Source: Patescibacteria group bacterium (lineage in GTDB: Bacteria; Patescibacteriota; Patescibacteriia; Magasanikbacterales; JBBTQS01). From it: a DNA stretch of 64,000 bases. Under the pieces are notes generated by a model. That model saw only the letters and a program-made list of their open reading frames with translations. It made no database searches and had not been told where the DNA came from. The translations under genes were made by a program, and so were the position numbers. Shown here in pieces: positions 19,042 to 42,304 of this stretch. How positions within the stretch are numbered: the first letter of the stretch is position 1; each line of letters opens with the position of its first letter. The stretch covers positions 256,741 to 320,740 of the forward strand of contig JBBTQS010000001.1 of assembly GCA_038065555.1 (NCBI GenBank), written 5' to 3'.

Positions 19042-19068
19042 ACGTGACTTGAAAAGTATATATGCACG

Positions 19069-19077: not shown

Positions 19078-19081
19078 CAAA

Positions 19082-24316: not shown

Positions 24317-27300
24317 TTAAAGCTGTGTGGTCAGAATCGTGTAATTGACGAAGTACGCGTCTGGGACATCGACTACTTTCTTCGCCCAGTCTGCGCCATA
24401 GAGCTCTACAGCACGTGCCTCAGTCGAGACCCACTGCAATGTAGCGTCTGCTGTCACTGCGTAGACCTTCGGAACTGTCGTGATCTTCACGAGGTATGTA
24501 CCTGGCTTGATCGTCATATTCTTGCCGAGCGAGAATGTGGCGAGCTGCTCTGGTGTGATTGTCTTCACCTTGCTGAAGTCCTTGCCATACCAGCTGTGAT
24601 ACACCGCTTCCATAGGGAATGACCGTCGAGTTCCTGATGCGTCAATGTAGTAGACTGCTGTGTTACCGTCGATCTTCACAAGATCGCCCACGCTCAGTCC
24701 AAATGGGATCTGGACACCAGGGACTGGAGTTGTTGGGAGCTTGTCACCCGTAACTGGTGGAGGCGTGACAACGCCGCTTTCTGATGCTGCTGTAACTGTA
24801 ATAGAATCACTTGCAACGGCTGATACCGCACCTGTCGCGCTTGCGAACTTCACATATACTGTCTTGCTTCCATTTCCTGCGCTGAGTGTGAATGCACGTG
24901 AAGTCACGTACGGCTCCCAAACACCTCCAACAAATTCAGGATGTTCGCTCACTGCCATTTCAGATGCACCTGTTGCTGTGAGTTGGAGTACGACGTTGCG
25001 TGATGCTGTTGACGCTGCGTTGGCATTGATGACTACTGTGCCAGCAACTGTTGTTGCGCTTGTAGCACCTGTTGATCCAGATGATCCTTGGCTCAACACA
25101 CTAATCGTTGTGGTTGATGCGTCCGTTGTATTTGTTGCATCCACAAATGCTACCGAAAGCGTTCCGTTACCTGTCATGTCGAGTGTTCCGTCGCCCACTG
25201 ATGCAACGTTGGTACCACGTACCGTGAGCGCACCACGGAAAATTCCTGTTGCAACGCCGGTCTCGGTCATGAGCACTGATTCTGCGTCACCAGTGTTGCT
25301 GTAGAGACGAATCTGGTTAGACCCAGCAGTCATGCTTTCGGACGTTGAGCCATTGAGATTGCCGTCGTCGTCATTTACTTCCACGTAGAGTAGATCTCCT
25401 GCGCGATACGTAATGGTTGATTGCTGTGTACCAGAGCCATCAACAAACCGGAGATACCCATTCGGGTTAATAATTGTTCCTGTTTGTGTCAATGTTCCGC
25501 TGTTGGCGATGCTGCCAACCGCTGGAACCGTGAGATCAACTCCGGTATCTACTACGACAGTTGTTCCTGCTGCAATCGTGAGTGTTCCCATCACTGTCGT
25601 TGTTGCAGTGAATGTGAATGTCTGCCCAGAAGCAGAGATCGTAACATTACCTGGGTATACAAATGTACTTGGCAAGTTACCACTTCCTGTGAAGGCAACC
25701 GTACTTGTTGAAGCAAATCGATACTGGTTGTTTGTGACGGCAATTAATTTTGTTGCATCTGTCGATGCTACCGTAAATGTACCACCATCAACACGGATGT
25801 ACGCAAGAGTTGTTGTAACGCTTGGACGAGTCACTGTGAGTGAGTACCCTGCTGGGATAATCATCGTACTCGAAACAGCGATTTTGCCGAGGTTCATTGT
25901 TCCAGCACTCGCGCCTACTGACTGAAGCGTGCCAGACTGTGTCGTCGAAATCGATGTTGTTGCTGAACCTGCAGTAATCGTTCCCGCTGCAGTCATGAGC
26001 ACATCACCTGCGAAAGTGATTCCAGTAGTTCCGTTAGGCAAAACGATACTCGTTGATGCACCAGTTACAAGGAAGTCATTTGTAACAACCATTGGATCAT
26101 CGAATACATCGAATCGAAGTGTACCTGTCGCAACAGTGAGATTAATGACATCCCAATACCCCATCACATTCGTGAGACTACCACTTGCTGATGTACCAGG
26201 ATAGAGTGTGCCTGATTCCTTACGAATGTATACATCGTAAAACTGTACTGTGGACGAAACAAACTGATCGCCTGTACCATCGAAAATAAATACGTTTTCG
26301 CCTGCTGTAATCGCTGCCGCACCCAGACGTTGGTAGAAGTGCCCACCGACATTGAACTGTCCTGTTCCCCAGAGCAAGCCAATATGCGTCCCTGGATTGC
26401 ACAATCCTGCACCCGATGCTTCGAGTGATAAAGTGCCGTCAGCATCAAGTGTTGCGTTCTTTGTGCGGAAATCTGCGTTACCTTCGGTAACCTTGAGGTG
26501 CGTTGTTGCTAAGCCACCACTCACGATCATTGTTGAAGCACTAGCACACGGGAGTGTTACCTGAAACGTACCAGCAAAAACATGGTTACTCGTTGAAGTT
26601 ACGTAATAAGTTCCAGAATCCTGTGGATCGTAAGAATATGTCGTGCTCACTGTGCTCAGTGTTGCTGATGAACCGATCTGGATATTTCCCTGGAATGTAT
26701 ACGTTGGCGTACCGAGTGCGAGTCCGGCTTGCGCGTTATTTGCGATAGTCAGTGAACCACCTTGTGTCCACGCGATGTTATTTGTTTGGAAATCAAAGAG
26801 TCCTTGTGTAATTGTCGCTGCACAGTACGAGGTCAATGTATCGGATACAAGAATAACACTGTCTGAGGATCCACCTGCTGTATTATTTACTTCAATAGTG
26901 CAGTATGAAGCAGATGAACCTGGTCGGAATGTCTGTGATGCAGCGGTACCACCGAATTCAAGCGCGAACATGTGCGCTTCGTCGAGCGTGAGTGTTCCAC
27001 CGTTGATCATCCAGTCACCCTTCACCGTGGTATCGAGCGCAGGCAAAAAAGTTCCCGAGTTCAACACAAGATCGTCGTTGAATACTGCGGTACCACTATT
27101 AAAAGTAGAAGTAACAGTACCACCTGCGATAGTCATCGCACCTCCGGCCGTCAACGTATATGTTGCAACATTGAATGTACCCGCAGAAATCGTTGATGAT
27201 GCGATTGTAGCGTTGGCACCGAGTGTAATAATACCAGAGTATCCAGATGCAACACGCACTACAAGGTTTGAATAACTCGAGGCAAATGTAGAATCCCAAG

Positions 27301-27523
27301 TTGCATTCGATGTGGATGTGCCGTCGAAGACAATAGTGTCCCCATCTGCAGGTAATGTATTACTATCCCAGTTGGATGCTGTGCTCATGTTACCACTGCC
27401 ATCCCAGGTCTTGGTTGCAGCATGTGTGTCAGCTTGTACACCCACAAACAATGCAAATGCACCTAGGAGCACCCCCGCAGTCCGCAATCCTTGCAACACA
27501 AATGATCTTGTTCCCATACGCAT
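24317..27523 (-). CDS. giant Ser/Thr/Gly-rich cell-surface protein A (beta-helix/Ig-like repeats) with C-terminal about 115-aa shared domain
   Basis: Signal peptide MRMGTRSFVLQGLRTAGVLLGAFALFVGVQA; about 900 aa of T/S/G/A/N-rich beta repeats; C-terminal KPGTYLVKITTVPKVYAV...DVPDAYFVNYT domain homologous to the N-terminus of the 37216-40914 protein. Confidence 0.7.
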   Translation of the reverse strand: MRMGTRSFVLQGLRTAGVLLGAFALFVGVQADTHAATKTWDGSGNMSTASNWDSNTLPADGDTIVFDGTSTSNATWDSTFASSYSNLVVRVASGYSGIITLGANATIASSTISAGTFNVATYTLTAGGAMTIAGGTVTSTFNSGTAVFNDDLVLNSGTFLPALDTTVKGDWMINGGTLTLDEAHMFALEFGGTAASQTFRPGSSASYCTIEVNNTAGGSSDSVILVSDTLTSYCAATITQGLFDFQTNNIAWTQGGSLTIANNAQAGLALGTPTYTFQGNIQIGSSATLSTVSTTYSYDPQDSGTYYVTSTSNHVFAGTFQVTLPCASASTMIVSGGLATTHLKVTEGNADFRTKNATLDADGTLSLEASGAGLCNPGTHIGLLWGTGQFNVGGHFYQRLGAAAITAGENVFIFDGTGDQFVSSTVQFYDVYIRKESGTLYPGTSASGSLTNVMGYWDVINLTVATGTLRFDVFDDPMVVTNDFLVTGASTSIVLPNGTTGITFAGDVLMTAAGTITAGSATTSISTTQSGTLQSVGASAGTMNLGKIAVSSTMIIPAGYSLTVTRPSVTTTLAYIRVDGGTFTVASTDATKLIAVTNNQYRFASTSTVAFTGSGNLPSTFVYPGNVTISASGQTFTFTATTTVMGTLTIAAGTTVVVDTGVDLTVPAVGSIANSGTLTQTGTIINPNGYLRFVDGSGTQQSTITYRAGDLLYVEVNDDDGNLNGSTSESMTAGSNQIRLYSNTGDAESVLMTETGVATGIFRGALTVRGTNVASVGDGTLDMTGNGTLSVAFVDATNTTDASTTTISVLSQGSSGSTGATSATTVAGTVVINANAASTASRNVVLQLTATGASEMAVSEHPEFVGGVWEPYVTSRAFTLSAGNGSKTVYVKFASATGAVSAVASDSITVTAASESGVVTPPPVTGDKLPTTPVPGVQIPFGLSVGDLVKIDGNTAVYYIDASGTRRSFPMEAVYHSWYGKDFSKVKTITPEQLATFSLGKNMTIKPGTYLVKITTVPKVYAVTADATLQWVSTEARAVELYGADWAKKVVDVPDAYFVNYTILTTQL

Positions 27524-27536
27524 TATTATTGGTCGG

Positions 27537-27545
27537 AGTATAGCA
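27537..27545 (-). promoter_or_regulatory. extended -10 promoter TGcTATACT
   Basis: Minus-strand GTGCTATACT 13 nt upstream of the ATG of surface protein A (near-leaderless). Confidence 0.4.
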
Positions 27546-27549
27546 CACT

Positions 27550-28683
27550 TTAGAGTTGTCGGAAAAGTTTTTGCATTCTTTGGGCAATCACTGACCAATC
27601 GAAATTCCTTGCGCGTCGAAGTCCTTCTCCGCGACAGCGCTCTCGCAGTTCGTTATCGCCGCGTAACCGTGTAATTGCCTCTGCGATAGACTGTGGATTA
27701 TTCGGCTCACAGAACACGCCACTCACATCAGACTCCACAATATCTGGGATGCCGCCAACAGGGGTAGCAACAACAGGGATTCCAGCTGCCTGCGCCTCCA
27801 GGAACACATTCCCCAACCCTTCAGAGATCGACGCGCGACAAAATACATCACTCGCATGCAGATATGCAGGCAGATCACGATGGCCAACAGATCCGACGAA
27901 ATGTACTCGCTCACGAATGGATTGCGCCCGCTGTCGCAACACTGGCTCCAGCCCACCACTCCCCACAATTACTACATGCGTGTCCAATGGTAATGCAGCA
28001 CATGCTGCAATCAAATCGCCAACACCATTCTTTTCAACCAACCGAGAAACCGTTATTACAACCCATGCGTCAGCTGGTATTCCGAGTGTTTTTCGCACCT
28101 CGCTGCGCGTTTGCGCCGGTTGTGCAAAATGCGCCACTGCAACGCCATTTGGGATCACCTCTACACGATTGCCCGCATACCCCATCTTCACTGCCCATGC
28201 GCCCAGTGACGAGCTAATCGCATGTATCACTGATGCGCGGCGAAAAATCGCCTGCACCATCCAGAAAAAGCCTCTTGATGCGCGACGAATATGTTCCTCG
28301 CTGTCCCCTTCTTGCACAGACAATACAAAAGGAATCTGTGGACGAAATGCTGCGACAATGCGTGCTGCCAGCCCTCCATAACTCGCCATAATCGCCCAAA
28401 TCGCTTGTACATTACGATGACGAAACGCAATAAGTGGTGCCAAAAGAGGCAATAACACCTTGTCGAGTGCCGCAACACCCACACCAATACGATGCACTTC
28501 CACATTTTCTATGTGTTCGTTTGTCGCGAGTCCTGGCTTGATCCGCGCACAGTAGAGAATCCAACGATACTCAGGAATGCGACGAGTAACCTCTTGTACC
28601 GCAATCTCAGCACCTCCAATAAGCGGCAAATACGCGGTGGAAAAAATCAAAATGGTTTTCTTTGCGTGCACCGCCTGATCCAT
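27550..28683 (-). CDS. glycosyltransferase family 4 (GT-B, GT1/GT4)
   Basis: GT4 N-terminal domain pattern (ILIFSTAYLPLIGGAEIAV) and C-terminal EGLGNVFLEAQAAGIPVV motif. Confidence 0.75.
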   Translation of the reverse strand: MDQAVHAKKTILIFSTAYLPLIGGAEIAVQEVTRRIPEYRWILYCARIKPGLATNEHIENVEVHRIGVGVAALDKVLLPLLAPLIAFRHRNVQAIWAIMASYGGLAARIVAAFRPQIPFVLSVQEGDSEEHIRRASRGFFWMVQAIFRRASVIHAISSSLGAWAVKMGYAGNRVEVIPNGVAVAHFAQPAQTRSEVRKTLGIPADAWVVITVSRLVEKNGVGDLIAACAALPLDTHVVIVGSGGLEPVLRQRAQSIRERVHFVGSVGHRDLPAYLHASDVFCRASISEGLGNVFLEAQAAGIPVVATPVGGIPDIVESDVSGVFCEPNNPQSIAEAITRLRGDNELRERCRGEGLRRARNFDWSVIAQRMQKLFRQL

Positions 28684-28688
28684 ACGTT

Positions 28689-29648
28689 TTATACCTTAGT
28701 CGTCCTGCGAACTTCTTTCTTGAAATAGGCAACTGATTTTTGCAATCCTTCGCGCAATGAGACCTTGGGCTCCCAACCAAGAATCTCCCGAGCACGGGCA
28801 ATATCTGGCTGACGACGACGTGGATCATCTTCGCGTGGCGCGCTGTGTACAACCTCACTACGACTCTTCGTGACAGCCAACACTTCAGCAGCAAGTTCAT
28901 TCACTGTGAACTCAGTGGCGTTACCGAGGTTGATCGGTCCGTGCACATCTGGCGCGCTCGCCATCATACGAACCAACCCGTCAACGAGATCTGAGACATA
29001 ACAAAAACTTCGCGTCTGTGATCCATCACCATCGATGCGAATTGTCGTTCCTTTGATCGCTGACACGATGAAATTACTCACCACGCGTCCATCCTCTAAC
29101 GCCATGTTCGGACCGTACGTATTGAAAATCCGCACCACCTTCACTGGCGCTTGATACTGTCTAATATATTCAAAACACAGCGTCTCAGCGAGACGTTTGC
29201 CTTCGTCGTAGCATGCACGCGGGCCAATCGGATTCACCGAACCCAAATAGGTCTCCGGTTGTGGGTGTACCTCAGGATCTCCATATACTTCTGAGGTCGA
29301 TGCATGCAGGAGCGTCGCACCTTTGGCTCGTGCAAAAGCTAACAGCTGACGAATTCCATCCACGCTCGCAGCAATGGTCTCAAATGGAAATGCAAAATAT
29401 TTTGCTGGTGACGCAGGGCACGCGAGGTTATAAATCTCATGCACAGGCTCTGCAATCTTGAGTGGACGCGTTACATCGTGCTTCTTGAACACAAACGCAC
29501 CAGACTTCGAAAGTCCTCGCAGATTCCGTCGATCGCCGGTGATGAGTGAGTCCACGCCAATGACGCGATGCCCCTGCTCGAGCAAGACGCGCACCAAGTG
29601 ACTCCCGATAAATCCAGCTGCACCAGCGACGACAATGGTTTTTTGCAT
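28689..29648 (-). CDS. UDP-glucuronate decarboxylase / UDP-xylose synthase (NAD-dependent epimerase-dehydratase SDR)
   Basis: GAAGFIGSHLV Rossmann motif, YDEGKR catalytic YxxxK, and FNTYGPNM...DGSQTRSFCYVSDLVDGL typical of UXS/ArnA-decarboxylase type enzymes. Confidence 0.75.
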   Translation of the reverse strand: MQKTIVVAGAAGFIGSHLVRVLLEQGHRVIGVDSLITGDRRNLRGLSKSGAFVFKKHDVTRPLKIAEPVHEIYNLACPASPAKYFAFPFETIAASVDGIRQLLAFARAKGATLLHASTSEVYGDPEVHPQPETYLGSVNPIGPRACYDEGKRLAETLCFEYIRQYQAPVKVVRIFNTYGPNMALEDGRVVSNFIVSAIKGTTIRIDGDGSQTRSFCYVSDLVDGLVRMMASAPDVHGPINLGNATEFTVNELAAEVLAVTKSRSEVVHSAPREDDPRRRQPDIARAREILGWEPKVSLREGLQKSVAYFKKEVRRTTKV

Positions 29649-29717
29649 AGACCCGTTATTCTCTGTATGATGCTAACTACACCATATTTCTTCGCAAAAG
29701 TAAACAAAACACGTTCT

Positions 29718-30878
29718 ATGTCCACCACTCCCCACCCACGTCTCACGGTTGGACTCCTCATTACGCAAGGCCATTGGGGTGGTGCGCAACAATACGTCTT
29801 CGATCTTGCAACGCACCTCGCATCCGAGATGAACGTCGTTGTAGGCATTGGCTCTCCAACACGCGGCCAAGAATTACAACAACGCCTTGCGGCATGGAAT
29901 ACGGCGCATCCCAAATCTCCCATCACCATACAACAACTCACGCATCTTGTGCGCGAGATTTCTCCATTAAAAGACCTTCGTGCGCTTGCTGAAATCAAAA
30001 ACTTCGTTGTACGCAATCACCTTGATATTCTCCACTGCAACAGTGCCAAAGCTACAGTGATCGGTTCATTTGCAACGCGTGCGCTCCCTGTCCGACGCGT
30101 CACAACAGTACATGGATTCACATTCACCGAACCACTTTCCTGGGCACGCAGAGCGTTCTACCGAACACTCGAGCGAATCGCCAGCACCTCTGCACACCTG
30201 CTCATTTGTCCAGATCGCGCATCATACGCCATTGCCAAGGACTCATTCCACATTCCACAATCGCGCCTCGCACTGATTCCACACACACGCACGGACATCG
30301 CGTTCCTTCCACGTGATGCAGCACGTACTGCGCTTGCAAAACACATAGGACACACGATCACAGATCACACCCAAATCATTGGATCAATTGCTAATTTCTA
30401 CAAAGTCAAAAACCAAGCGCTCCTCCTCGAGTCCTTCGCACTCCTCGCACAACAAAATCCCGAAGCCATTTGCATACTCATCGGAGACGGCAGCGAACGC
30501 CAAAACCTAGAGAGTATTCGCACATCACTCCCCTGCGCAAACCGAATTTTCTTCGCGGGTGCAATCGAAAACGCCGCAACACTTCTGCGAGGATTTGAAG
30601 TCTTCGCACTGACTTCAGACAAAGAAGGATACCCATTTGTTCTCCTCGAAGCTCGCGCCGCTGGTATCCCCATTGTTGTGCGCAATATCGGTGGCTGTCC
30701 TGAAATTATAGAAGGGGTGAGCAACGCTAGTAGCGTCACCACCCCCACTCCCACAGCAATTGCTGCGGCACTCACACGCGCACTCGAACAAAATCCTATT
30801 TCACAAACGCGCACATCGAGTGAACTCATGCACAATGCAACGCGTGTACGTTACCATTCTCTAGTCACGAACCAATAA
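29718..30878 (+). CDS. glycosyltransferase family 4
   Basis: GT4 fold; EGYPFVLLEARAAGIPIV motif; start taken at MSTTPHPRL. Confidence 0.7.
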   Translation: MSTTPHPRLTVGLLITQGHWGGAQQYVFDLATHLASEMNVVVGIGSPTRGQELQQRLAAWNTAHPKSPITIQQLTHLVREISPLKDLRALAEIKNFVVRNHLDILHCNSAKATVIGSFATRALPVRRVTTVHGFTFTEPLSWARRAFYRTLERIASTSAHLLICPDRASYAIAKDSFHIPQSRLALIPHTRTDIAFLPRDAARTALAKHIGHTITDHTQIIGSIANFYKVKNQALLLESFALLAQQNPEAICILIGDGSERQNLESIRTSLPCANRIFFAGAIENAATLLRGFEVFALTSDKEGYPFVLLEARAAGIPIVVRNIGGCPEIIEGVSNASSVTTPTPTAIAAALTRALEQNPISQTRTSSELMHNATRVRYHSLVTNQ

Positions 30879-32966
30879 TTCGTAGAACCGAGCCAACTCT
30901 TCATCCTTCACAACCTTTGCAACCTGAATGGCAACCTGACGTGCCTGCTCTGTCATAGTCTCAGGTCGTCGTGTGCGCACTTCTCGGAACATTTCCGCCG
31001 ATGCCACAGCATCATCAAATGCGGCGTAGAGCATCGCTGCGCGCCAATACGACTGACCAACTGCAGGATCAAGTGCAATCGCTTCTTTCATTGCCGCTTC
31101 AGCCGCGGGCTTGTTACGCAGCACCAACTGCGCCTGCGCTACTTCATACAGGAGCTGCTGACGTTTGGGTGAAAGTGCCCGCGCCTGCTCTAACACCTGC
31201 AATACCATGAACTGACGAGCCGCATTGTTGGTAATAATCGCTTCCTGCTGCAACATCTGTGCGCGCAACACCGCGATACGCAATTCAAAAGGACGCTTTT
31301 GCAACTGCGCTTCTAAGTCAGGCAATACCACTGTGTAGGTTTCGGAGTGCAACGACTTGGCGAGCGCAGTTGACGCTTGTGTCGCTGCATTCAGGAACCG
31401 AACAAGTGCCGTTGCGAACTCGCGAGTAATATCATCGTCGTGCGGCGATTGATACGACTTCGCCTGTGCATACAACCGCATTGCTTCTCGTGTGAGTGGA
31501 ACTGCTTGTTGTGGGTTCTGGTTGGACCCAGCCAACATGAGATGCTGCAACGCGAGCAATGTTGACGCGTTTGCCTGCGCCGTACGCACATTTCCTTGAT
31601 AGATGAGCAGCACAGCAACAAGTACAGCGACAATCGCCACACCTGGCGCAGCGGTTCGCGTCGGCGACAATCGTGGGAGCTCCTGCTCACCCAACGCACT
31701 GCGCCGATCAATATAGGCAAGCAATACGAACCACGCGAGATACGAAGTCACATTATCGAACACAAAGAGATTGTGCACGAAATACGCAACCAGGAACATC
31801 TGCAACACGAGTGACTCTTCCCACGATTCCTTCCCAATGCGCACAGCACCAATATACGCGCACACGAAGAGCGCGAGGTATGCGACAAGCCCCACAACCC
31901 CCTGTGTCGTTAACGTATTGAAGACAATGTTATGGGCGTTATCAAACCACGTTTCTGAATCTCCAAACCGCAAGAATTCTGGATCAAAGTGTTCATTAAA
32001 TGCAAAGTAGAAGGTGTTGAGCCCCCATCCTTGGACCGGATGTTCCTTCCACGCCTCAATCGCCACGCTCCACGTCATAATACGCGTTCGCCCCGTACCC
32101 TCAGTCAACGACAAATGCGTCATGCGATTAAGGAATGGCTGGTTACGTATGACCGTGGTATCTCGAGCCAACCAGAGCCCTGCGAGCAACACTACAAACC
32201 CAACGCACGCAGCAAGTGTCCATTTGCGCACACGAGCATCCACCCCCTTCCGGAACAACACCAGGAGCATTCCCACAACAACAGCAACCGCCACACCAAT
32301 CATCGTACCGCGTGTCTTGGTCGGCAAAATTGTCGCAAGCGCAATCACACCTGAGATCGCCCACACCCATCGTAACTCGTTCGACTTCTCCTTCACCCAC
32401 AACACCGCGGCAATCGAAGCCAAGAACAGTGCATATCCACTCACATAGATCGTGTTGCCGAGCGTCGAACGCACGCGATCGCTCCCCTCATTGAGCAAAA
32501 AAAGTGGATTGCTCACCTGCAACCATGCAATCAACACAAATGGGAGGCCAATAATCAGAATCCAAATGAATAACGCACGCCATTCCTTCCACGTTCGGAA
32601 CACCTGACGACTCACGAAGTACAACGCAACATAATGAAAAATTGTGTACAAACCAAGCATGCGCTCATGATTGTCCCAGAGACTGCGACGCACATCCACA
32701 CTCCAAACCGTAGAGAGAATACCCGCCAAGATGAACCCAAGCACCGCATACAAAATCGGCGTACGTCGAATCTGCGAACGCTCAGTTGCATACAGCGCTA
32801 TATACCAAGCATACACCGCCGCAAGCAGTGTAATCATGACGCGCAAGAACAACACCTTTGGAACCACAAACGGAAACACGTACGATGCCGTTGTAACAAT
32901 CAGCGGTGTAATGAACGTGAGCGCTACACCAATTTGCAATATCCGCGTCAAAACTCGATGAGACAT
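30861..32966 (-). CDS. O-antigen ligase (Wzy_C) family membrane protein fused to C-terminal TPR repeats (paralog 1)
   Basis: about 12 TM helices with the Wzy_C core (ILPTKTRGTMIGVAVAVVVG) and a large periplasmic loop, then about 250 aa of TPR-like helical repeats. Confidence 0.65.
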   Translation of the reverse strand: MSHRVLTRILQIGVALTFITPLIVTTASYVFPFVVPKVLFLRVMITLLAAVYAWYIALYATERSQIRRTPILYAVLGFILAGILSTVWSVDVRRSLWDNHERMLGLYTIFHYVALYFVSRQVFRTWKEWRALFIWILIIGLPFVLIAWLQVSNPLFLLNEGSDRVRSTLGNTIYVSGYALFLASIAAVLWVKEKSNELRWVWAISGVIALATILPTKTRGTMIGVAVAVVVGMLLVLFRKGVDARVRKWTLAACVGFVVLLAGLWLARDTTVIRNQPFLNRMTHLSLTEGTGRTRIMTWSVAIEAWKEHPVQGWGLNTFYFAFNEHFDPEFLRFGDSETWFDNAHNIVFNTLTTQGVVGLVAYLALFVCAYIGAVRIGKESWEESLVLQMFLVAYFVHNLFVFDNVTSYLAWFVLLAYIDRRSALGEQELPRLSPTRTAAPGVAIVAVLVAVLLIYQGNVRTAQANASTLLALQHLMLAGSNQNPQQAVPLTREAMRLYAQAKSYQSPHDDDITREFATALVRFLNAATQASTALAKSLHSETYTVVLPDLEAQLQKRPFELRIAVLRAQMLQQEAIITNNAARQFMVLQVLEQARALSPKRQQLLYEVAQAQLVLRNKPAAEAAMKEAIALDPAVGQSYWRAAMLYAAFDDAVASAEMFREVRTRRPETMTEQARQVAIQVAKVVKDEELARFYELLVRD

Positions 32967-32976
32967 ACCGGCAAAA

Positions 32977-35196
32977 TTATTGGTCAAGTTCTTTAAGAAA
33001 TTGTTCTGCACCTTCACGATACGACGGATCCAACTCTATAGCACGAAGCGCTGCGTGACGAGCTTCAGCCTTGCGTCCCACCTGCCCATACGCAAGAGCA
33101 AGGCGTGACCACCACAGAGGCTCCAGTGGCAACTGCTGCACGACGATCTCATACAGATCCACGAGTCGATCATGCTTTTGCTTTTCCACCAGCACACGCG
33201 TCACCACTTCAACTTGCGCAGCAGTCTCGAACTGAAATCGCATATCCATTGCACGTTCCACATGCATGAGTCCCTCGTCAACAGTTGCTGGATCACTCAA
33301 AAGCGGGAACCCGTAATACCAATGCACCAACACCGTGTCCCCCGCCCGCTGAAGTGCCTCCTTCATCACGCGCGTTGCCTCGTCTTTTCGCTCCAGAGCC
33401 AACAACGCTTGTGCTTGAAGCAAATACCCTTCTTCGCGACTCGGACTCAGCGCCGTTGCTTCGCGGAAATACGCAAGTGCCCGCTCCAACAACGCCGTAT
33501 CATTACGCAATACTCCTACTTGATACTCCATTTTCCCAGCCATTACAATCAGGAGAACCGTACGAGGCTGTGACGCAAGAATTTCCTCAAGATTCGCCCT
33601 CACCCACGCAATATCCTTGTCAAACCATGCACGCACTTCCGGAGTCAACCCCTCAAGCGAATTATCCTTCGAATTGCCATGCACCATATCTGTCACCGAA
33701 CCAGCAGTCCAACGCCAACGCTCGAATTGATACGGCGTGTACCATGCATACGCATAATACAAATACTCACGCGCCCCACTCCAATTCCCCACATACGACA
33801 GTTGCAAACCATAGTTGGTCATTGATGCAGAAATAAGCGGAGTAATACTACCCCACAATACCGCAACACCAATAACAGCAGTACTCATCCAAAGTACAAC
33901 TTGCGGCACACGCCACGCATTACCCGCACGCCCAATCGCTAATCGCTGTTCCTGTGCTAACACCAACCCAACAAGCAACGCCACCGGCAAATACGTCCCT
34001 GGATTCTCGAACAAAAACACCATTTGGCCCAGATGCCCCACCCCTACTCCCACCAGAACTGCAACGAGCCCCGGACTCCACACATCCTCACATCGCGCTC
34101 GTATAAGCACACGAACCAGGCACACAACCACCGCAACAAATGCCACGAGACCCACAACACCACTGGTCGCCATGAGCTCCAGCACGTGACTGTGCGGCTT
34201 GTCGACATAGGACTCCACAAATGCAATTTCCGAAAGCGCGGGATTATAGAATGCATCACTCACCCGACGATAATTCTCCGGACCCCACCCAAAGATTGGC
34301 CGACCAAGGAATCCATCCCACGCCACACCCCAGTTAATTGCACGAGTAGAGAGCGACGTAACGCCCAGTAGACTTGTTGCCCACCCTCGAACCGCTGAAG
34401 ATTGTGTAAACACAAGCCCGGCCACAACTATCATGGCACCAACCACCCCCACGCCCCACAACACAACTGCGCGAGTAATTCGTTGTCGCTGCAACACAAT
34501 CCACACTCCCATTCCAGCAACAACTCCAGCAGCCAGACCAACATATGTTCCACGTGCCTGAGCCATAATCAACGCAACTGCCGCGAGCACCACGAACACT
34601 CCAGCAATCCCACGCCAGCGTCGTCGGTCCTGCGCAATAATCACCCCCGCAATACCAAGATGAAGCAATAGGTACGATGCAAAAAGCACAGGATTACCAA
34701 GTGTACTTCCAATACGCACCGCCGAAACATTTGGAACAAGCGACGGGAACCACCACTGCAAAATACCAACGACAGCAACAACACTCGCCGCCCACACACT
34801 CACGCGCAATACCCGAGCTCGCGATTCAGCTGAAAAAAGTGGCGAAGCAAACACCAAGAGCGCACCCAAAATGTGCAACTGATACCACAACCCCGTCGAG
34901 CGAGCCATATCACTCCACAGACTCTGCCACCAATCCACCCCAACTACCGCGCACAACAACTGCACGACAAAGAAGACTACAATAGCGATCAGAAGCGGCG
35001 ACCAACGCAACCGCAACGACGGCTCACGATACCACACCCACACACTCGCCCCAACCATCACAGATACAACCGTCTGCAATACCATCGCCTGCACAAAGGA
35101 CAGTGGATACAAAGACAATGGAAAGTAAAACAGCGGCACCCACACCAACACATACGCACACCACAGTATCACCCGATGTAACATCTTAGTACTCAT
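32977..35196 (-). CDS. O-antigen ligase (Wzy_C)-TPR fusion membrane protein (paralog 2)
   Basis: Same architecture as paralog 1; RPIFGWGPENY motif; C-terminal TPR region. Confidence 0.65.
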   Translation of the reverse strand: MSTKMLHRVILWCAYVLVWVPLFYFPLSLYPLSFVQAMVLQTVVSVMVGASVWVWYREPSLRLRWSPLLIAIVVFFVVQLLCAVVGVDWWQSLWSDMARSTGLWYQLHILGALLVFASPLFSAESRARVLRVSVWAASVVAVVGILQWWFPSLVPNVSAVRIGSTLGNPVLFASYLLLHLGIAGVIIAQDRRRWRGIAGVFVVLAAVALIMAQARGTYVGLAAGVVAGMGVWIVLQRQRITRAVVLWGVGVVGAMIVVAGLVFTQSSAVRGWATSLLGVTSLSTRAINWGVAWDGFLGRPIFGWGPENYRRVSDAFYNPALSEIAFVESYVDKPHSHVLELMATSGVVGLVAFVAVVVCLVRVLIRARCEDVWSPGLVAVLVGVGVGHLGQMVFLFENPGTYLPVALLVGLVLAQEQRLAIGRAGNAWRVPQVVLWMSTAVIGVAVLWGSITPLISASMTNYGLQLSYVGNWSGAREYLYYAYAWYTPYQFERWRWTAGSVTDMVHGNSKDNSLEGLTPEVRAWFDKDIAWVRANLEEILASQPRTVLLIVMAGKMEYQVGVLRNDTALLERALAYFREATALSPSREEGYLLQAQALLALERKDEATRVMKEALQRAGDTVLVHWYYGFPLLSDPATVDEGLMHVERAMDMRFQFETAAQVEVVTRVLVEKQKHDRLVDLYEIVVQQLPLEPLWWSRLALAYGQVGRKAEARHAALRAIELDPSYREGAEQFLKELDQ

Positions 35197-37073
35197 AGTA
35201 TCGGAAAACGTGTTCCAAGAGCCTCACCATCGCGCTTCACTTCTTCAGCTTTTTCTGGCTGATCAGCAACACGATACGCAAGATACAAATACAGATACGT
35301 CTCGCGAACACCTGGAGCATCAGCACGCACTGCCTCAAGACGTGTGATAGCATCCGCAACACGATTTGTACCAATCAAGAACTCACTCTCCGCATACGCG
35401 GGATACGGATGACGAGGTGCCAACGCCTGCGCTTGTGCAAATGTTCGCTGTGCCAAATCTATCCAATCATTCCCATTACTCTGCGCTTGTTGCGCATAGA
35501 ACTGTGCGAGGAGATATGTTCGATAGAACCGAGTTCCGTCCTGCGTACACCGCGGTGCAGCTCGCTCCAGATCACGCGCCGTGCGCACACGAATATCAGC
35601 AGCTATACGATCACTCCCCGCAACTGCCACCCACGTTTGCATCGCCTTCTCCCACAACACACACGATGCAGGCACAGCATCATCTGCACTGCGCGTGACC
35701 TCTTCCATCCACGGGAACCAGCGCCCTGCGGCACGCGCATCCTCCGCACGAGTGTACGACGCAAATGCGCTCATCTGCGCCACAACACCATACAAACTCC
35801 ACACAACCAACACTCCTGCAACGCCAATCACCGCACGGTGTCGAACATTCGCCACAGGCAATACCTTGCGTACTCGTGGCACCGCGATCACACTTCCCAC
35901 AATGATCCAAAAAAACGCTGCGACAATCGGTTGCTCCGGTGTGAACAAAAGATACATCCCATACGCACCCACCATTCCAAATAACGCTGGCGACACACGC
36001 CATGCAATCAACAACACCATAGCAAACAACGCAATCCACACAACAAGTCCAACAATACCCATCTCCACAGCAACCATCAATACTGCGTTATGCGCGTCAT
36101 CGTTGAACGCCTCACTTCCTGCATACACCAGACTCTCAGGATTGAACCGTGCAGCAAACACTTCAGGATACGCGCCCCGTCCCCACCCAAACCATGGTCG
36201 ATCCTGAATCCCCTCCCACGCACCACGCCACTGCAACAATCGCGTCTGCGATGTCACTGCCGACGGAGCAATCTGCAATGCTCGTGGCACACCCCAGGAG
36301 GCTGGAACAAATTGCAGCGCAACAAAGAGCAACACAATGGCACCAACACCACCCCCGATACGCAGTGCCCGAACGCGCTCCATATGCGCAACCATCCACA
36401 AACTCGCCATGACTATTCCTACAATCAATCCTAGCAATCCAGCACGACTATCCGTTGCAACAAGCGCACTCACTTGCACCAACGCTGCAGCAATCCACCA
36501 TCCACGAACAGCCGCATGGGCACGTACATACGCTATACCCGTTGCCCCCAATGCAACGAGCAAAAATCCAGCAAGAAATGAAGCATTTCCAAAACTTGAA
36601 ATTACACTTCCAGTCGATCCAATCCACACCCATCCAGGGAATACATTTCCCAACCAACCCAGTACTGCCACAACAACCCCCATTCCAGCAATCACACGCA
36701 CCAATCGATCGCGCCACACCTGCGTACACAATGATACCGCCAACAATGACCCACCAACTGCATGCACCCAAATCCACCATCCATTTGCACGTAACAGCGA
36801 TCCCCATCCGACCATTTCTCCACCCCGCGTCGCAATACCAAGTAACACCAGATACCCCAACACAATCCACCACAAATACTTGCTCATCCGCGCAGAACCG
36901 AGGTCAGCGTCAACATGAACACCTCGGCGCATCTGCGTAATTACAACCCAAAGAAATCCCAAATCCAAAAGCCCCATCATTGCCAACACCTTTGGTGTCA
37001 AATGCGCCTCAGGCAACGATGGCGCCACCAACAATGGCACACTTACCGCAAGTACAATAAGAAAAATACCCAT
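35193..37073 (-). CDS. O-antigen ligase (Wzy_C)-TPR fusion membrane protein (paralog 3)
   Basis: Same architecture; DRPWFGWGRGAY motif; 4-nt overlap with paralog 2. Confidence 0.65.
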   Translation of the reverse strand: MGIFLIVLAVSVPLLVAPSLPEAHLTPKVLAMMGLLDLGFLWVVITQMRRGVHVDADLGSARMSKYLWWIVLGYLVLLGIATRGGEMVGWGSLLRANGWWIWVHAVGGSLLAVSLCTQVWRDRLVRVIAGMGVVVAVLGWLGNVFPGWVWIGSTGSVISSFGNASFLAGFLLVALGATGIAYVRAHAAVRGWWIAAALVQVSALVATDSRAGLLGLIVGIVMASLWMVAHMERVRALRIGGGVGAIVLLFVALQFVPASWGVPRALQIAPSAVTSQTRLLQWRGAWEGIQDRPWFGWGRGAYPEVFAARFNPESLVYAGSEAFNDDAHNAVLMVAVEMGIVGLVVWIALFAMVLLIAWRVSPALFGMVGAYGMYLLFTPEQPIVAAFFWIIVGSVIAVPRVRKVLPVANVRHRAVIGVAGVLVVWSLYGVVAQMSAFASYTRAEDARAAGRWFPWMEEVTRSADDAVPASCVLWEKAMQTWVAVAGSDRIAADIRVRTARDLERAAPRCTQDGTRFYRTYLLAQFYAQQAQSNGNDWIDLAQRTFAQAQALAPRHPYPAYAESEFLIGTNRVADAITRLEAVRADAPGVRETYLYLYLAYRVADQPEKAEEVKRDGEALGTRFPIL

Positions 37074-37124
37074 AGAAAATACTACACACCACTATACCCC
37101 GACACACCCCGCTCTGTTAAGAGC

Positions 37125-37170
37125 CACACAATAACAAAACCCCCCAGTTTCCCGGGGAGTTTTGTTTTGG
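37125..37170. terminator. intrinsic terminator CAAAACCCCC-AGTTTCCC-GGGGAGTTTTG for surface protein B gene
   Basis: 11-bp stem (one G-U) with T/U tracts on both sides, 50 nt after the stop of the 37216-40914 gene. Confidence 0.5.
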
Positions 37171-37215
37171 ATGAGGTCATTCCTCTTGCGAGGAAGCCGC
37201 AACCGCTAACCTAGA

Positions 37216-40200
37216 TTAGTAGGTAAGCGTCTTGCCAGAGAATGGCAAGCCACCGAGACCGGAAGCTGTTGGCTTGAGGTCGTAGATAGCTGCGGTGTAA
37301 CCGTCAGTCCAAGTAATACCGCTCACAGCTGTCGAGCCACCGGAGGTACCTCCAACAGCGAGACCGATCGTGAGAGTATTGTTCGAAGCTGCGTCATCCG
37401 TGTCCATCGTGACGATAACCGTCTTGCTGGAACCAGATGGGACTTCCAAATCGGTGAAGGAAGCTTCAGCGATGTTGGTGTCATCCATCGAGCTGCCCAA
37501 GTCGCCAGACGAGAGCGTACTTACGTACGAAGTCGAAGCGAGGAGGTTACCCGAAGAGATGCTGTCCTTGTAGATCTTGATTTCACGAGCAGCGTGAGCA
37601 GCAGCTGCGGAGATCGAGGTGTCAACCTTGAGGTTGAGCAACTTGATCGTAGCGGACTGGTTGTTCACGTTTGCTGGGTTAGTGAAGACCCACTTAGCAA
37701 CTGTCTTGTCGTCACCCTTCGAAGTAGCGCCTGATGGTGCGTCCGAAGCGTGAGCGATGCTCAAGTTAGCCTTGAGAGGGTGCTTTGCCGTAGCAACAAT
37801 GCGCATGCTGTCGCCGGTCAAACCAGTGAAGGTTGTGATCGAAGCGCCAGATTCTGCACCGCGTGCAACGATAGAAGCGGAGTTGCTGCTGTCATAGCCG
37901 TACAAGAGACCTGCGAAGAACGTAGAGCTCGAGAAGCTATCTGGCGAACCAGTGATGTCAGCAACAAGGCGAAGCGTCTTGCTCGAGTTCTTTGGAACTA
38001 CGAGGTTAAGACCAGTGAACGTAGCGTACGCGGTCGAGGTTGCATATACAGCCGTCGAAGTCGCGCTTGCTGTTGCAAGGCTTGATACTGCGGAACCAAC
38101 CATTGTGTCACCGTCCATAAGGCGGAGGTTGCCAACAACACCAGTGGTGCTGGTAGCGAACAACGTCATGATGGATGGGGTGAGCTCGCTGATTGTCACG
38201 CCTTCTTCCTTACCTGCAGAGAACTTGAAGCGTCCAAGTTCAACGTCGGTGGAACCCATCGTTACGTAGTGCTCAGCTGTAGAGTCTGAAGCAAGAGCAA
38301 CGGTGAGAGAGCCAGACGATGCAACGTAAACGTTCTGGAGACCTGCGGACAAGGTAGCGGTACCACTCTGAGACGTCTCAAGTGTCTGGTAGGACACAGA
38401 AGATGGGTAGAGAATACCGTTCGTGTCTGCATTGATGTTTGCGCTAGAACCACCGGTCACGTCAGCAAGTACATCAACTACGTACGTCTCACCCTTTGCG
38501 AGCACGATAGGTGTCGTGAGGGTGTAGTCGTATGTGTCGGATGCGCCTGTTGTCAACGTGCCCTTAACGCCCGCGATGTCAGCACCATTGTGCTGGAGGC
38601 GGAGGTTGGAGAAGACTGCAGAGAGACCACCAGTTACATCAGCCTTTACGGTGATGTTGGTAATCTTTGCACCTTCGCCAGATCCTGCCTTTACCACGAA
38701 CGAGCTGATGCGTGCACTCTTGGTGCTCGATACAGCAGTTGGGTTCACAGAGCTACCATCAGCAACCGTCAAGTTCTCAGACAAAGTCGGAACTGACGAT
38801 GCGAAAGTAAGGCTGTAAGCCGTAGCAGCAGCAGTGCTGATCGACGTAAGAGAGGTCTTAGCCTGAGCGTTAGCAGAGCCAGCGCGGACTACAACCTGTA
38901 CTGTGTCGCCAGCCACAACCGAAGTATCGGTGGTGTCAGCAGTAACTACGAGCTTGCCAGTCGTACCTGGGGTCACAACAAAGTTGTTGGAGAACGTGTA
39001 GTCTGCGTCCAAGCTGGTGTTGTTACCAGAGGTCGAAGAAGCTACAGCTGTACCAACCTGTACACCGTTAAGGAAAAGCTTAACGTTCTTGTACGCGTTG
39101 TTGGAGGATCCTGCGAGGTAGAGAGACATGCTGTCAACCTTCACAGCTTCACCAGCTGCAACGAGGTCAAACGTTGCGAGGTTGACGCCAGTAGCGCCAG
39201 TCGCAATGTTGTTCTTCGTTGATTCGGTAGCTGGAGTGATTGTGAGCGTACCTGTGTTGATCGTCGTCTGTGCGGTGGTCTGAATGGAGAACGCCGTCGT
39301 ATTGAGGGTTACCACTGGAGCGTACACACCGTACTGAAGATCCCATGCAGTTACATCATTTTCTTCCTGAACCGAGAACTGGAAGTTACGGTTGGTACCG
39401 CCAACTACTGTTCCGTAGAGGTCCAAGAACTTCGACTGACCAGCAGTGATCTTGAGACCACCGTCTGCAGAGTTGGTGAAGTCGAACGTGAGCTTGTTGT
39501 TTCCAAGATCAGCGTACGTTGCACCAAACTGCGTGCCAGCAACAGTCAACTTGATGTTCTTGATGTCGGAAGCGCTTACCGAACCAATCTGTGTGAAGGT
39601 AATACGCTTCACAAGGAGGTTCTGATCTGTAGCAAGGATCTTGAACTTAGCAAGTTCCTTGTCTGCAGATGCGTTTGCATCCATGGTTGTAGCAGATACT
39701 GGGGACGATGTAGCAACCTGGAGATAGCCGAGGTCAGTGACCGTAGCAATCGTCATGTTGTTTCCAACAGCCGAACCAGATGCTGCACCGGACTTCACTT
39801 CAGCAGCGTTCACGGTAAAACCAACGGTTGTACCAGTGCTTGCTGACTTGTTGATGTTTGCCTTCACCCAAATGGTCTTGGTCTGGCCAGCTGGAACGGT
39901 GAAAATACCGTTCGAGTTGCTCCAGGTTACCTTGCCGCTCGAGATAGAAGAGGACTCTGCAAGAATAGTCTCGCCGTCCATGAGCATTACTTCATCAACA
40001 TCGCTGTCCTTCGAGATACCTGTGCGAGTTGCAGTAACCATAGTTACTACAGCCTCTGCACCCACTGCGGAGAAGCGTACAGCCGTCATTGGGGCCATGC
40101 GCTGTCCGAGCGTAGCGCTAGCTGTTGTGTCAACCACAACGGAACCAGCTGCTGGTGTAGCGGAGTCGAGCGAAATTGTCAACGTCGTTGGAGCTGTTGG

Positions 40201-42293: not shown

Positions 42294-42304
42294 ACGAGAA
42301 GTAC

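What the first reader, a model, noticed from the sequence alone, without database searches (positions are those of the whole stretch)
30861..37073. Three consecutive Wzy_C (O-antigen ligase)-TPR fusion paralogs
Three same-strand genes (about 700-740 aa each, overlapping by 4 nt where checked) share the same architecture: an approximately 12-TM Wzy_C core with a large periplasmic loop, then a C-terminal TPR array. Local triplication implies sub-functionalisation, for example different glycan or acceptor specificities. The TPR tails are predicted periplasmic or extracytoplasmic protein-binding modules, which would suit recognition of protein acceptors.
Basis: partly seen in the sequence, partly recalled or inferred. 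Interest (0 to 1): 0.6.

Follow-up and report, generated by a model that had tools for sequence, protein, structure and literature searches.

The report
Three surface-glycan transferase paralogs, Patescibacteria
Three neighbouring genes in an uncultured groundwater Patescibacterium encode membrane enzymes of the O-antigen-ligase family, each with an outward-facing TPR tail; they most likely attach sugar chains to a large surface protein encoded next to them, which is a known kind of system seen here in a little-studied phylum.

Summary
Three minus-strand genes, C (35193-37073, 626 aa), B (32977-35196, 739 aa) and A (30861-32966, 701 aa), all carry a Wzy_C domain above Pfam's cut-off. All three keep the Arg/Arg/His catalytic set of WaaL and PglL, and all three end in an extra 13th transmembrane helix followed by a helical TPR tail.

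An AlphaFold model of A (pLDDT 95.7) and the positive-inside rule place the tails outside the cell, on the side of the catalytic loop.

The contig is from a Patescibacterium (CPR), a group reported to lack LPS. The paralogs are old (21-30% identity). The triad is conserved only in a small clade; most relatives carry one copy, of type A.

In 39 of 56 evaluable related loci, the gene sits just downstream of a conserved ~1230-aa secreted protein with 25% Ser+Thr, built of Ig-like repeats. Here that gene is 37216-40914.

The best reading is PglL/WsfB-like protein O-oligosaccharyltransferases acting on this surface protein, but this is circumstantial (confidence ~0.5). It is a new member of a known kind, of moderate interest.

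The parts
35193..37073 (-). Paralog C, 626 aa: Wzy_C core, TM13 (about res 412-439) and a short helical/TPR tail
   Evidence: Wzy_C hit E 5e-20. R/R/H conserved. The tail profile matches MamA at E 2e-9. Orthologues are present in L003-L006. The subfamily is rare.
35196..35756 (-). Tail of C (res 440-626), with about 2-3 TPRs at its end and two Cys invariant among the 5 orthologues
32977..35196 (-). Paralog B, 739 aa: Wzy_C core, TM13 (about res 429-459) and a TPR tail. Its start overlaps the stop of C by 4 nt (ATGA).
   Evidence: Wzy_C hit E 2e-14, and TPR_2/TPR_8/TPR_14 above cut-off. Homologues of 737-741 aa cover the long N-terminus. The overlap is read.
32980..33819 (-). Tail of B (res 460-739), a TPR array
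30861..32966 (-). Paralog A, 701 aa from the ATG at 32966 (the longest ORF, from a GTG at 33017, gives 718 aa). It is the orthologue of the widespread single-copy Patescibacteria family.
   Evidence: 100% identical to P0013, named 'O-antigen ligase family protein [Patescibacteria group bacterium]'. AF2 pLDDT 95.7, pTM 0.93. Best PDB fold match is WaaL 7TPG. Tree position.
31929..32168 (-). Extracytoplasmic catalytic loop of A (res 267-346) with R295 and H345. R219 lies just upstream, at the start of TM8.
   Evidence: These residues align to the TRG Arg, the loop Arg and the AHN His of CmWaaL, and to H349 of PglL. They are invariant in 99/99 sequences. This is the most conserved region among orthologues.
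31578..31646 (-). TM13 of A (res 441-463), the helix that carries the tail to the outside
   Evidence: Long helix 441-481 in the model. Hydropathy peak. The preceding loop is Arg-rich.
30864..31577 (-). Tail of A (res 464-700), 12 helices, TPR-like
37216..40914 (-). 1232-aa secreted protein: signal peptide, ~150-aa alpha/beta N-terminal domain, low-complexity T/P/S/A linker, then a chain of Ig-like beta-sandwich domains. Ser+Thr is 25% and there is no Cys. It is the proposed acceptor.
   Evidence: No Pfam hit. The family is Patescibacteria-wide, 1170-1300 aa, all named 'hypothetical'. AF2 pLDDT 87. Fold matches are Ig-like/MG-domain chains. It lies upstream of the Wzy_C-TPR gene in 39/56 loci.
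37127..37173 (-). Terminator-like hairpin with a U-run between the 1232-aa gene and paralog C
   Evidence: dG -26.5 kcal/mol, z -6.2
37091..37120 (-). Promoter-like site (TTAACA-18-TATAGT) upstream of paralog C
   Evidence: Consensus scan only; the number of sites found is no greater than in shuffles.
24317..27598 (-). Second large surface protein with 25.6% Ser+Thr (ORF 1093 aa; public call 1068 aa). Its C-terminal ~120 aa are homologous to the N-terminal domain of the 1232-aa protein. It is a possible second acceptor.
46563..48047 (-). Fourth Wzy_C paralog, 494 aa, without TM13 or tail. It is a candidate polymerase or ligase of the same glycan cluster.
41082..42877 (-). ECF sigma factor (42305-42877) and a DUF5667 membrane protein (41082-42293), syntenic with the module in distant relatives
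27550..30878 (.). GT4 glycosyltransferase (27550-28683, -), NAD-dependent sugar epimerase/dehydratase (28689-29648, -) and a divergent GT4 (29568-30878, +), all flanking paralog A

Best explanation
A, B and C are lipid-linked-glycan transferases of the Wzy_C/O-antigen-ligase superfamily (WaaL-like fold), and they most likely act as protein O-oligosaccharyltransferases.

Proposed mechanism:
1. Glycans are built on a polyprenyl-pyrophosphate carrier by the many GT4 enzymes and the epimerase of the cluster, then moved across the membrane.
2. On the outer face, the conserved Arg pair binds the pyrophosphate, and the conserved His (with the conserved Glu/Asp) activates an acceptor hydroxyl.
3. The TPR tail is held outside by a 13th transmembrane helix. 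It docks the acceptor protein, most likely the co-encoded ~1230-aa Ser/Thr-rich Ig-repeat surface protein and its relatives.
4. The three old paralogs differ most in their tails, so they would serve different acceptor regions, acceptor proteins or glycans.

Shown: fold, catalytic residues, topology, gene linkage. Inferred: the donor, the acceptor and the division of labour.
For: - Wzy_C is above cut-off in all three.
- The core profile hits WaaL 7TPG (E 8e-15) and the oligosaccharyltransferase 9RMK (E 4e-11), with R/R/H aligned; the His falls on residue 349 of 9RMK.
- R219, R295 and H345 are invariant in 99/99 sequences.
- The AF2 model of A has pLDDT 95.7, and its top fold match is WaaL.
- WaaL (413 aa) ends at the equivalent of TM12, whereas 9RMK (610 aa) and A/B/C continue for about 190-280 residues.
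- The O-OTase PglS is modelled with 13 TM helices and a large C-terminal periplasmic domain (PMC12800693).
- Glu/Asp at A-404 is present in 98/98 tail-bearing members and aligns with E404 of 9RMK. That position is Thr in WaaL and Ser in the tail-less paralog D. Mutation of PglL E404 reduces activity (PMC12800693).
- The tails are predicted to be outside.
- In 39/56 related loci a homologue of the 1232-aa secreted protein lies upstream on the same strand, usually within 1 kb.
- That protein has 25% Ser+Thr and a T/P/S/A linker.
- Precedent: WsfB (Wzy_C plus TPR) and the WsaA (TPR) / WsaB (Wzy_C) pair are described as the predicted S-layer O-OTases, and their gene clusters are drawn together with the S-layer genes (PMC2943079).
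- A Parcubacterium of the CPR lacks LPS genes, and a glycosylated S-layer has been suggested for it (PMC5220378).
- Between paralogs the tails are the most divergent region (11-19% identity), yet they are conserved within each orthologue group.
Against: - No activity, glycan or glycoprotein has been observed.
- O-OTases, WaaL ligases and Wzy polymerases cannot be told apart reliably by sequence, and WaaL scores slightly better than the OTase.
- No PglL_A or Wzy_C_2 domain was listed in the Pfam scan at E<=1.
- A strong terminator separates the 1232-aa gene from the three genes, so they are neighbours but not one transcript.
- 17 of 56 loci lack the big protein upstream.
- No initiating phosphoglycosyltransferase or clear flippase was found in the cluster; the nearby ABC-2 pair is generic.
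- The E404 alignment lies in a short loop at low identity.
- The position of the tail relative to the membrane was inferred from helix count and charge, not measured on coordinates.
Confidence: 0.5

Rival explanations
1. They are ligases that attach a finished glycopolymer to a non-protein acceptor of a monoderm envelope (a glycolipid anchor, a lipoglycan or peptidoglycan). This would be a WaaL-like reaction without lipid A. The TPR tail would act as a scaffold to other envelope machinery rather than as an acceptor-binding module.
For: The best sequence and fold match is WaaL. NCBI names them O-antigen ligase family proteins. The locus is a large glycan cluster with many GT4 genes. 17/56 loci have no big protein upstream. 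TPR domains also serve as polysaccharide-export scaffolds, as in the title of a reference cited in PMC2943079.
Against: WaaL itself has no 13th helix or tail. The conserved acidic residue matches PglL and not WaaL. The gene pair with a secreted Ser/Thr-rich protein is conserved across deep divergence. No candidate lipid-acceptor pathway was seen in the window.
Confidence: 0.25
2. They are Wzy-type polymerases that each extend a different repeat-unit polysaccharide on the outer face, with the TPR tail playing a co-polymerase-like or chain-length role.
For: The Wzy_C domain is shared by polymerases. Three different enzymes in one glycan cluster could match three linkages. A small protein with a weak Wzz/chain-length-determinant hit lies at 53397-54008.
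Against: No Wzx-type flippase was found among the ORFs scanned. A separate tail-less Wzy_C paralog (46563-48047) already fits the polymerase role. The linkage is to a surface-protein gene rather than to repeat-unit genes. The Arg/Arg/His plus Glu pattern is that of ligases and OTases.
Confidence: 0.12
3. Only paralog A is an enzyme. B and C are degenerate copies that survive as structural or regulatory partners.
For: B and C are long branches and rare subfamilies. Most relatives manage with one copy.
Against: B and C keep R/R/H and the acidic residue. Their catalytic loop is the most conserved region among orthologues, at 47-80% identity. Both are retained in five genomes.
Confidence: 0.05

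Closest known systems
WsfB of Paenibacillus alvei, and the WsaA/WsaB pair of Geobacillus stearothermophilus (predicted S-layer protein O-oligosaccharyltransferases)
   Same: The Wzy_C membrane core is combined with a TPR module: fused at the C-terminus in WsfB, and a separate small TPR protein in WsaA. The genes sit in a glycan cluster drawn together with the gene of the surface-layer protein they are predicted to glycosylate, in a monoderm (PMC2943079). Some Patescibacteria loci likewise have a separate ~230-aa TPR gene in front of the Wzy_C-TPR gene.
   Different: No sequence comparison with WsfB or WsaB could be run here. The phylum is different. There are three paralogs rather than one. 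The neighbouring protein is an uncharacterised Ig-repeat protein, not a known S-layer protein.
PglL (Neisseria; PDB 9RMK 'Oligosaccharyltransferase') and PglS (Acinetobacter), general O-oligosaccharyltransferases
   Same: The core profile matches 9RMK at E 4e-11. The catalytic His aligns with residue 349, and the conserved acidic residue aligns with E404. In both there is a C-terminal extension beyond the WaaL-like core. PglS is modelled with 13 TM helices and a periplasmic C-terminal domain (PMC12800693).
   Different: No PglL_A or Wzy_C_2 domain is listed. Here the tail is a TPR array. The organism is a monoderm CPR bacterium. Identity is very low.
WaaL O-antigen ligase (Cupriavidus metallidurans, PDB 7TPG/7TPJ)
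   Same: It is the best sequence-profile hit (E 8e-15) and the best fold hit (Foldseek E 2e-7, TM 0.64 on the target). The 12-TM core, the outer loop and the Arg/Arg/His residues are shared.
   Different: WaaL ends after TM12, with no 13th helix or tail. It has Thr at the acidic position. Its acceptor, lipid A-core, is reported absent from a CPR Parcubacterium (PMC5220378).
Eukaryotic TMTC1-4 O-mannosyltransferases (membrane GT-C core plus lumenal TPR)
   Same: By analogy only (own knowledge, not tested): a polytopic lipid-linked-sugar transferase fused to a TPR domain on the non-cytoplasmic side that is thought to engage protein substrates.
   Different: The catalytic family is different, the donor is a single sugar, and no homology is claimed.

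Membership tests
Wzy_C / O-antigen ligase superfamily (Pfam PF04932) | Pfam Wzy_C hit above the gathering score | tested here: met
   70.8, 53.8 and 72.2 bits against a cut-off of 31.7 for A, B and C
Wzy_C / O-antigen ligase superfamily (Pfam PF04932) | Polytopic core of about 12 TM helices with a large extracytoplasmic loop between TM9 and TM10 | tested here: met
   AF2 model of A; fold match to WaaL 7TPG; B and C align throughout
Wzy_C / O-antigen ligase superfamily (Pfam PF04932) | Conserved Arg, Arg and His of the ligase/OTase active site | tested here: met
   R219/R295/H345 of A align to the corresponding residues of 7TPG and 9RMK; invariant in 99/99 sequences, including B, C and D
WaaL (LPS O-antigen ligase) | Acceptor is lipid A-core, so the organism must make LPS | not testable with these tools
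   Only a 64-kb window is available, and no lpx/kds/waa genes were seen among the ORFs scanned. The contig is Patescibacteria. A CPR Parcubacterium is reported to lack lipid A/LPS genes (PMC5220378).
WaaL (LPS O-antigen ligase) | The protein ends after the 12-TM core | tested here: not met
   7TPG chain B is 413 aa and the alignment ends at residue 404. A, B and C continue with TM13 and 190-280 further residues.
PglL/PglS-type O-oligosaccharyltransferases | Catalytic His (H349 in PglL) and acidic residue (E404 in PglL) | tested here: met
   The His aligns to residue 349 of 9RMK and the Glu/Asp to residue 404. E/D is present in 98/98 tail-bearing members. This alignment lies at low identity.
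PglL/PglS-type O-oligosaccharyltransferases | PglL_A and/or Wzy_C_2 accessory domains | tested here: not met
   Neither is listed in the Pfam scan at E<=1 for A, B or C. That these domains mark the family is partly from PMC12800693 (Wzy_C_2) and partly own knowledge (PglL_A).
PglL/PglS-type O-oligosaccharyltransferases | En bloc transfer of a lipid-linked glycan to Ser/Thr of a secreted protein | not testable with these tools
   Only context is available: a Ser/Thr-rich secreted protein is encoded upstream in 39/56 loci.
WsfB-type S-layer O-OTase (Wzy_C + C-terminal TPR) | Wzy_C core fused to a C-terminal TPR module | tested here: met
   the WsfB description is from PMC2943079
WsfB-type S-layer O-OTase (Wzy_C + C-terminal TPR) | Encoded with glycan genes next to the structural gene of the glycosylated surface protein | tested here: inconclusive
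   Linkage to a conserved secreted Ig-repeat protein is shown, but that this protein forms an S-layer or is glycosylated is unknown.
Wzy O-antigen/EPS polymerase | Works with a Wzx flippase and a Wzz-type co-polymerase in the same cluster | tested here: inconclusive
   No Wzx-type protein was found among the scanned ORFs. There is only a weak Wzz-like hit at 53397-54008. Not every ORF of the window was scanned.
TPR repeat domain | Tail matches TPR profiles or folds | tested here: met
   B: TPR_2/8/14 above cut-off. A: family profile and fold matches. C: tail profile against MamA at E 2e-9, covering only the last ~80 residues.

The most novel reading that the evidence does not exclude
The pair formed by the ~1230-aa Ig-repeat secreted protein and the Wzy_C-TPR transferase (often with an ECF sigma factor and a DUF5667 protein upstream) is the core of a Patescibacteria-wide system that builds a glycosylated surface layer, a structure whose genes in this radiation are not known. 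In the window's clade it has expanded to three dedicated transferases, each with a different TPR tail, that decorate different surface proteins or different regions of one.
Probability: 0.3. Interest if true: 0.6.

Novelty: new member of a known kind. Interest (0 to 1): 0.4.

Why it matters
Patescibacteria (CPR) are a very large, almost uncultured part of bacterial diversity. According to a genome study of one member, the make-up of their envelope remains unclear (PMC5220378).

If these enzymes glycosylate the neighbouring conserved surface protein, the gene pair would name both a major envelope protein and the enzyme that decorates it. The three-paralog clade would then be a natural experiment in how TPR tails set acceptor choice in O-oligosaccharyltransferases.

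Such enzymes are also used to make conjugate vaccines, so new acceptor or glycan specificities have some practical value.

As it stands, the finding adds members to a known architecture; it does not reveal a new mechanism.

Tried and rejected
- Single-sequence searches of A and C against PDB sequences found only weak TPR hits. A profile was needed to reach WaaL and PglL.
- The genome-collection scan returned one locus, titled 'uncultured Gammaproteobacteria'. I set this label aside because the identical and related proteins are named Patescibacteria, Magasanikbacteria or Nomurabacteria.
- The ABC-2 transporter pair at 21900-23617 was considered as a Wzm/Wzt-type glycan exporter. NCBIfam gives only generic DrrA/DrrB-like hits and a weak KpsM hit, so no claim is made.
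- The 1232-aa protein was considered as a bacterial alpha-2-macroglobulin because of its fold hits. This was rejected: TM-scores are about 0.1 and the protein has no Cys for a thioester.
- IctB/bicarbonate transporter and exosortase-linked ligase hits are far below their cut-offs.
- Literature searches for CPR or Patescibacteria together with 'O-antigen ligase' found nothing.
Full report
**What is there.** The region holds three consecutive minus-strand ORFs: C at 35193-37073 (626 aa), B at 32977-35196 (739 aa) and A at 30861-33017 (718 aa as the longest ORF).
- Each has a Pfam Wzy_C domain well above the gathering score (70.8, 53.8 and 72.2 bits against 31.7).
- The stop of C and the start of B overlap by 4 nt (ATGA).
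- A most likely starts at the ATG at 32966, 10 nt after the stop of B, giving 701 aa. This matches the public gene call and the length of its homologues.
- The public call for B is 702 aa, but homologues of 737-741 aa cover the long N-terminus.
- The stated sizes were therefore slightly off (C is 626 aa), and the 4-nt overlap applies to one junction only.

**TPR tails.**
- By Pfam alone only B has TPR hits above cut-off; A and C are sub-threshold.
- A profile of 133 family members matches consensus TPR proteins at per-domain E of about 1e-13 over profile positions 560-670.
- A profile of the five C-type tails matches MamA at E 2e-9 over its last ~80 residues.
- In the AlphaFold model of A, residues 485-700 form 12 helices whose fold matches MamA, PilF and TTC0263.
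- All three therefore have TPR-type tails. C's is short, and it is preceded by a conserved helical stretch with two Cys that are invariant among the five orthologues.

**Core, catalytic residues and topology.**
- The AF2 model of A is of high confidence (pLDDT 95.7, pTM 0.93, 133-row alignment). It shows nine TM helices, a loop region at 267-346 with short helices, three more TM helices, a 15-residue Arg-rich linker, and a 41-residue helix (441-481) that begins as a 13th TM segment and runs into the tail.
- The best PDB fold match is the WaaL ligase 7TPG (E 2e-7, TM 0.64 on the target).
- A core-only profile hits 7TPG (E 8e-15) and 9RMK, a 610-aa 'Oligosaccharyltransferase' (E 4e-11).
- In those alignments three family residues fall on conserved residues of both structures: the Arg of the TRG motif (A R219), the loop Arg (R295) and the His of the AHN motif (H345). 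The His aligns with residue 349 of 9RMK, the number of the essential His of Neisseria PglL (own knowledge).
- These three residues are invariant in all 99 sequences compared, including A, B, C and the fourth paralog D.
- The 413-aa WaaL chain ends at the equivalent of TM12, so the 13th helix and tail are additions. 9RMK also continues for about 190 residues beyond the aligned core.
- Taking the helix order of the model with the N-terminus inside, short loops carry K+R inside/outside of 12/6 (A), 10/2 (B), 7/1 (C) and 13/2 (D). The catalytic loop and the tail are then both outside.
- Caveat: I had no access to model coordinates, so the tail's position is inferred from helix count and charge.

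**A possible ligase-versus-OTase discriminator.** The short TM11-TM12 loop carries a conserved F-(E/D)-N-P-T-S-Y motif.
- Its acidic residue (D404 in A; Glu in B and C) is E or D in 98 of 98 tail-bearing members.
- It aligns with E404 of 9RMK, with Thr in WaaL and with Ser in the tail-less paralog D.
- A paper on PglS states that mutation of PglL E404 dramatically reduced activity. It also states that the O-OTase PglS is modelled with 13 TM helices and a large C-terminal periplasmic domain forming a cleft (PMC12800693).
- This favours an OTase-like enzyme, but the alignment is at low identity.
- No PglL_A or Wzy_C_2 domain is listed for A, B or C, so they are not members of the proteobacterial PglL/PglS subfamily in the narrow sense.

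**Organism and family.**
- A is 100% identical to a protein named 'O-antigen ligase family protein [Patescibacteria group bacterium]'.
- The contig comes from a Hainich groundwater metagenome, 0.2-um fraction.
- Relatives of ~680 aa with the same architecture are common in Magasanikbacteria, Nomurabacteria and other Patescibacteria.
- One related MAG is titled 'Gammaproteobacteria', which I regard as a mislabel.
- A genome study of a CPR Parcubacterium reports no lipid A/LPS genes, an unclear envelope and a possible glycosylated S-layer (PMC5220378). A classical WaaL role is therefore unlikely.

**Copy number and age of the paralogs.**
- The paralogs share 21-30% identity.
- Among 89 fetched loci, most have one copy and eight have two. 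Three copies occur only in the window's own clade: L003-L006 and L010, the last being the same contig as L004.
- In a neighbour-joining tree, A falls inside the large single-copy clade. B and C are separate deep branches, each with orthologues in the same genomes. NJ on such divergent sequences is only indicative.
- A full scan of 1.84 billion representatives with C finds only 7 proteins at E<=1e-30, so the C type is rare.
- Within each orthologue group the catalytic loop is the best-conserved part (47-85% identity) and the tails are conserved about as well as the core. Between paralogs the tails are the most divergent part (11-19%).
- This fits three long-maintained, non-redundant enzymes that differ mainly in what the tail binds. 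It does not fit a recent local triplication.

**Context.** The three genes lie in a ~25-kb envelope cluster.
- It holds at least five GT4 glycosyltransferases, an NAD-dependent sugar epimerase/dehydratase and a fourth, tail-less Wzy_C protein (46563-48047).
- It also holds an ECF sigma factor with a DUF5667 membrane protein, and two very large proteins without Pfam domains.
- The one immediately upstream (37216-40914, 1232 aa) has a signal peptide, 25% Ser+Thr and no Cys.
- Its AF2 model (first 1200 aa, pLDDT 87) shows an alpha/beta N-terminal domain, a low-confidence T/P/S/A linker near residue 230, and a chain of beta-sandwich domains. Fold matches are Ig-like and MG-domain chains such as PrgB, integrin legs and macroglobulins, with low TM-scores as expected for a flexible chain.
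- Its family is Patescibacteria-wide, of strikingly constant length (about 1170-1300 aa), and annotated only as hypothetical.
- The second large protein (24317-27598) carries the same ~120-aa domain at its C-terminus (E 1.6e-39). A 424-aa ORF (17806-19080) shares the C-terminal part of the 1232-aa protein.

**Linkage test.**
- I built an HMM of the 1232-aa family and searched six-frame ORFs of all fetched loci.
- Of 56 loci with at least 4.2 kb upstream of the first Wzy_C-TPR gene, 39 have a ~1200-1300-aa homologue upstream on the same strand, mostly within 1 kb. A few of the 56 are duplicates of the same sequence.
- The order sigma factor, DUF5667, big protein, Wzy_C-TPR, divergent GT4, epimerase recurs in relatives at 33-37% identity.
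- In the window's triad and in the multi-copy loci inspected, the extra copies lie between the big gene and the A-type gene.
- In the window a strong terminator-like hairpin (dG -26.5, z -6.2) follows the big gene, and a promoter-like site precedes C. The big gene is thus probably its own, possibly highly expressed, unit.

**Interpretation.**
- The closest described systems are the S-layer glycosylation clusters of Gram-positive bacteria. The predicted O-OTases there are WsfB (Wzy_C plus C-terminal TPR) and WsaB (Wzy_C) with the separate TPR protein WsaA, and they are drawn in clusters together with the S-layer structural genes (PMC2943079).
- Some single-copy Patescibacteria loci even have a separate ~230-aa TPR gene in front of the Wzy_C-TPR gene.
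- I therefore favour protein O-oligosaccharyltransferases acting on the neighbouring surface protein family, at about 0.5 confidence.
- The main rival is a ligase for a non-protein acceptor (0.25).
- Polymerase roles (0.12) and degenerate copies (0.05) are less likely, because a tail-less Wzy_C paralog is available for polymerisation and B and C keep all catalytic residues.
- Missing pieces: no initiating phosphoglycosyltransferase or clear flippase was found in the window, and the nearby ABC-2 pair is generic. The MraY, MurG and FtsW genes at 61-64 kb belong to peptidoglycan synthesis.

**Verdict.** The functional reading is reasonable and gains circumstantial support, but it is untested. The Wzy_C-plus-TPR architecture and its proposed role are already described in other bacteria, and these genes are already annotated as O-antigen ligase family proteins, so this is a new member of a known kind. 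The more interesting result lies outside the finding as written: a conserved gene pair in Patescibacteria, unreported in the literature searches run here, that may name a major envelope protein and its glycosylating enzyme.

Noticed in passing
window 37127-37173 (-) and 37091-37120 (-): A strong terminator-like hairpin with a U-run (dG -26.5 kcal/mol, z -6.2) lies directly after the 1232-aa gene. It is followed by a promoter-like TTAACA-18-TATAGT site before paralog C. This suggests the big gene is a separate, possibly highly expressed, unit.
   Followed up: partly
window 46563-48047 (-): A fourth Wzy_C paralog (494 aa) with no 13th helix or tail. It keeps Arg/Arg/His but has Ser where the tail-bearing family has Glu/Asp (the position aligning with PglL E404).
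   Followed up: partly
window 48000-54000: A GC-rich island (0.57-0.61 against ~0.51 elsewhere). It holds a Cys/Asp-rich repeat ORF with a lipoprotein-like N-terminus (48586-50334) and a 477-aa ORF (50659-52092) ending in ...GVRF, which resembles the C-terminal signal of outer-membrane barrels. That is odd for a bacterium thought to have one membrane; it could reflect foreign DNA or an assembly join.
   Followed up: no
window 24317-27598 (-), 37216-40914 (-), 17806-19080 (-): Surface proteins appear to be built from shared modules. A ~120-aa alpha/beta domain is N-terminal in the 1232-aa protein and C-terminal in the 1093-aa protein (E 1.6e-39). The C-terminal part of the 1232-aa protein recurs in a 424-aa ORF (E 1e-17). 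The shared domain could be an envelope anchor.
   Followed up: partly
L009 9292-9993; L023 9169-9858; L037 9107-9784: In some single-copy loci a stand-alone ~230-aa ORF sits between the big protein gene and the Wzy_C-TPR gene. In L009 it carries faint TPR hits; in L023 and L037 it gives weak hits to the family profile. This recalls the WsaA/WsaB pair of Geobacillus.
   Followed up: no
window 35196-35756 (-), tail of paralog C: Two Cys residues are invariant among the five C-type orthologues (tail positions 57 and 95). This would fit a disulfide in an extracytoplasmic domain.
   Followed up: no
L004 (contig CAZVGV010000002.1): A MAG carrying the same triad at 62% identity is titled 'uncultured Gammaproteobacteria bacterium', whereas the proteins of this family are otherwise named Patescibacteria. 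This is probably a taxonomic mislabel of the record.
   Followed up: no
window 57542-57935 (+): A tmRNA gene with the tag peptide ANVYSRVKNSIASAFAMPSFAPVAA, and a tRNA-Gln at 5835-5908. These are ordinary housekeeping features.
   Followed up: no
window 5953-10878 (-): An AcrB-family RND pump (1034 aa) with a HlyD-like adaptor (602 aa). No outer-membrane channel gene was seen among the ORFs scanned.
   Followed up: no
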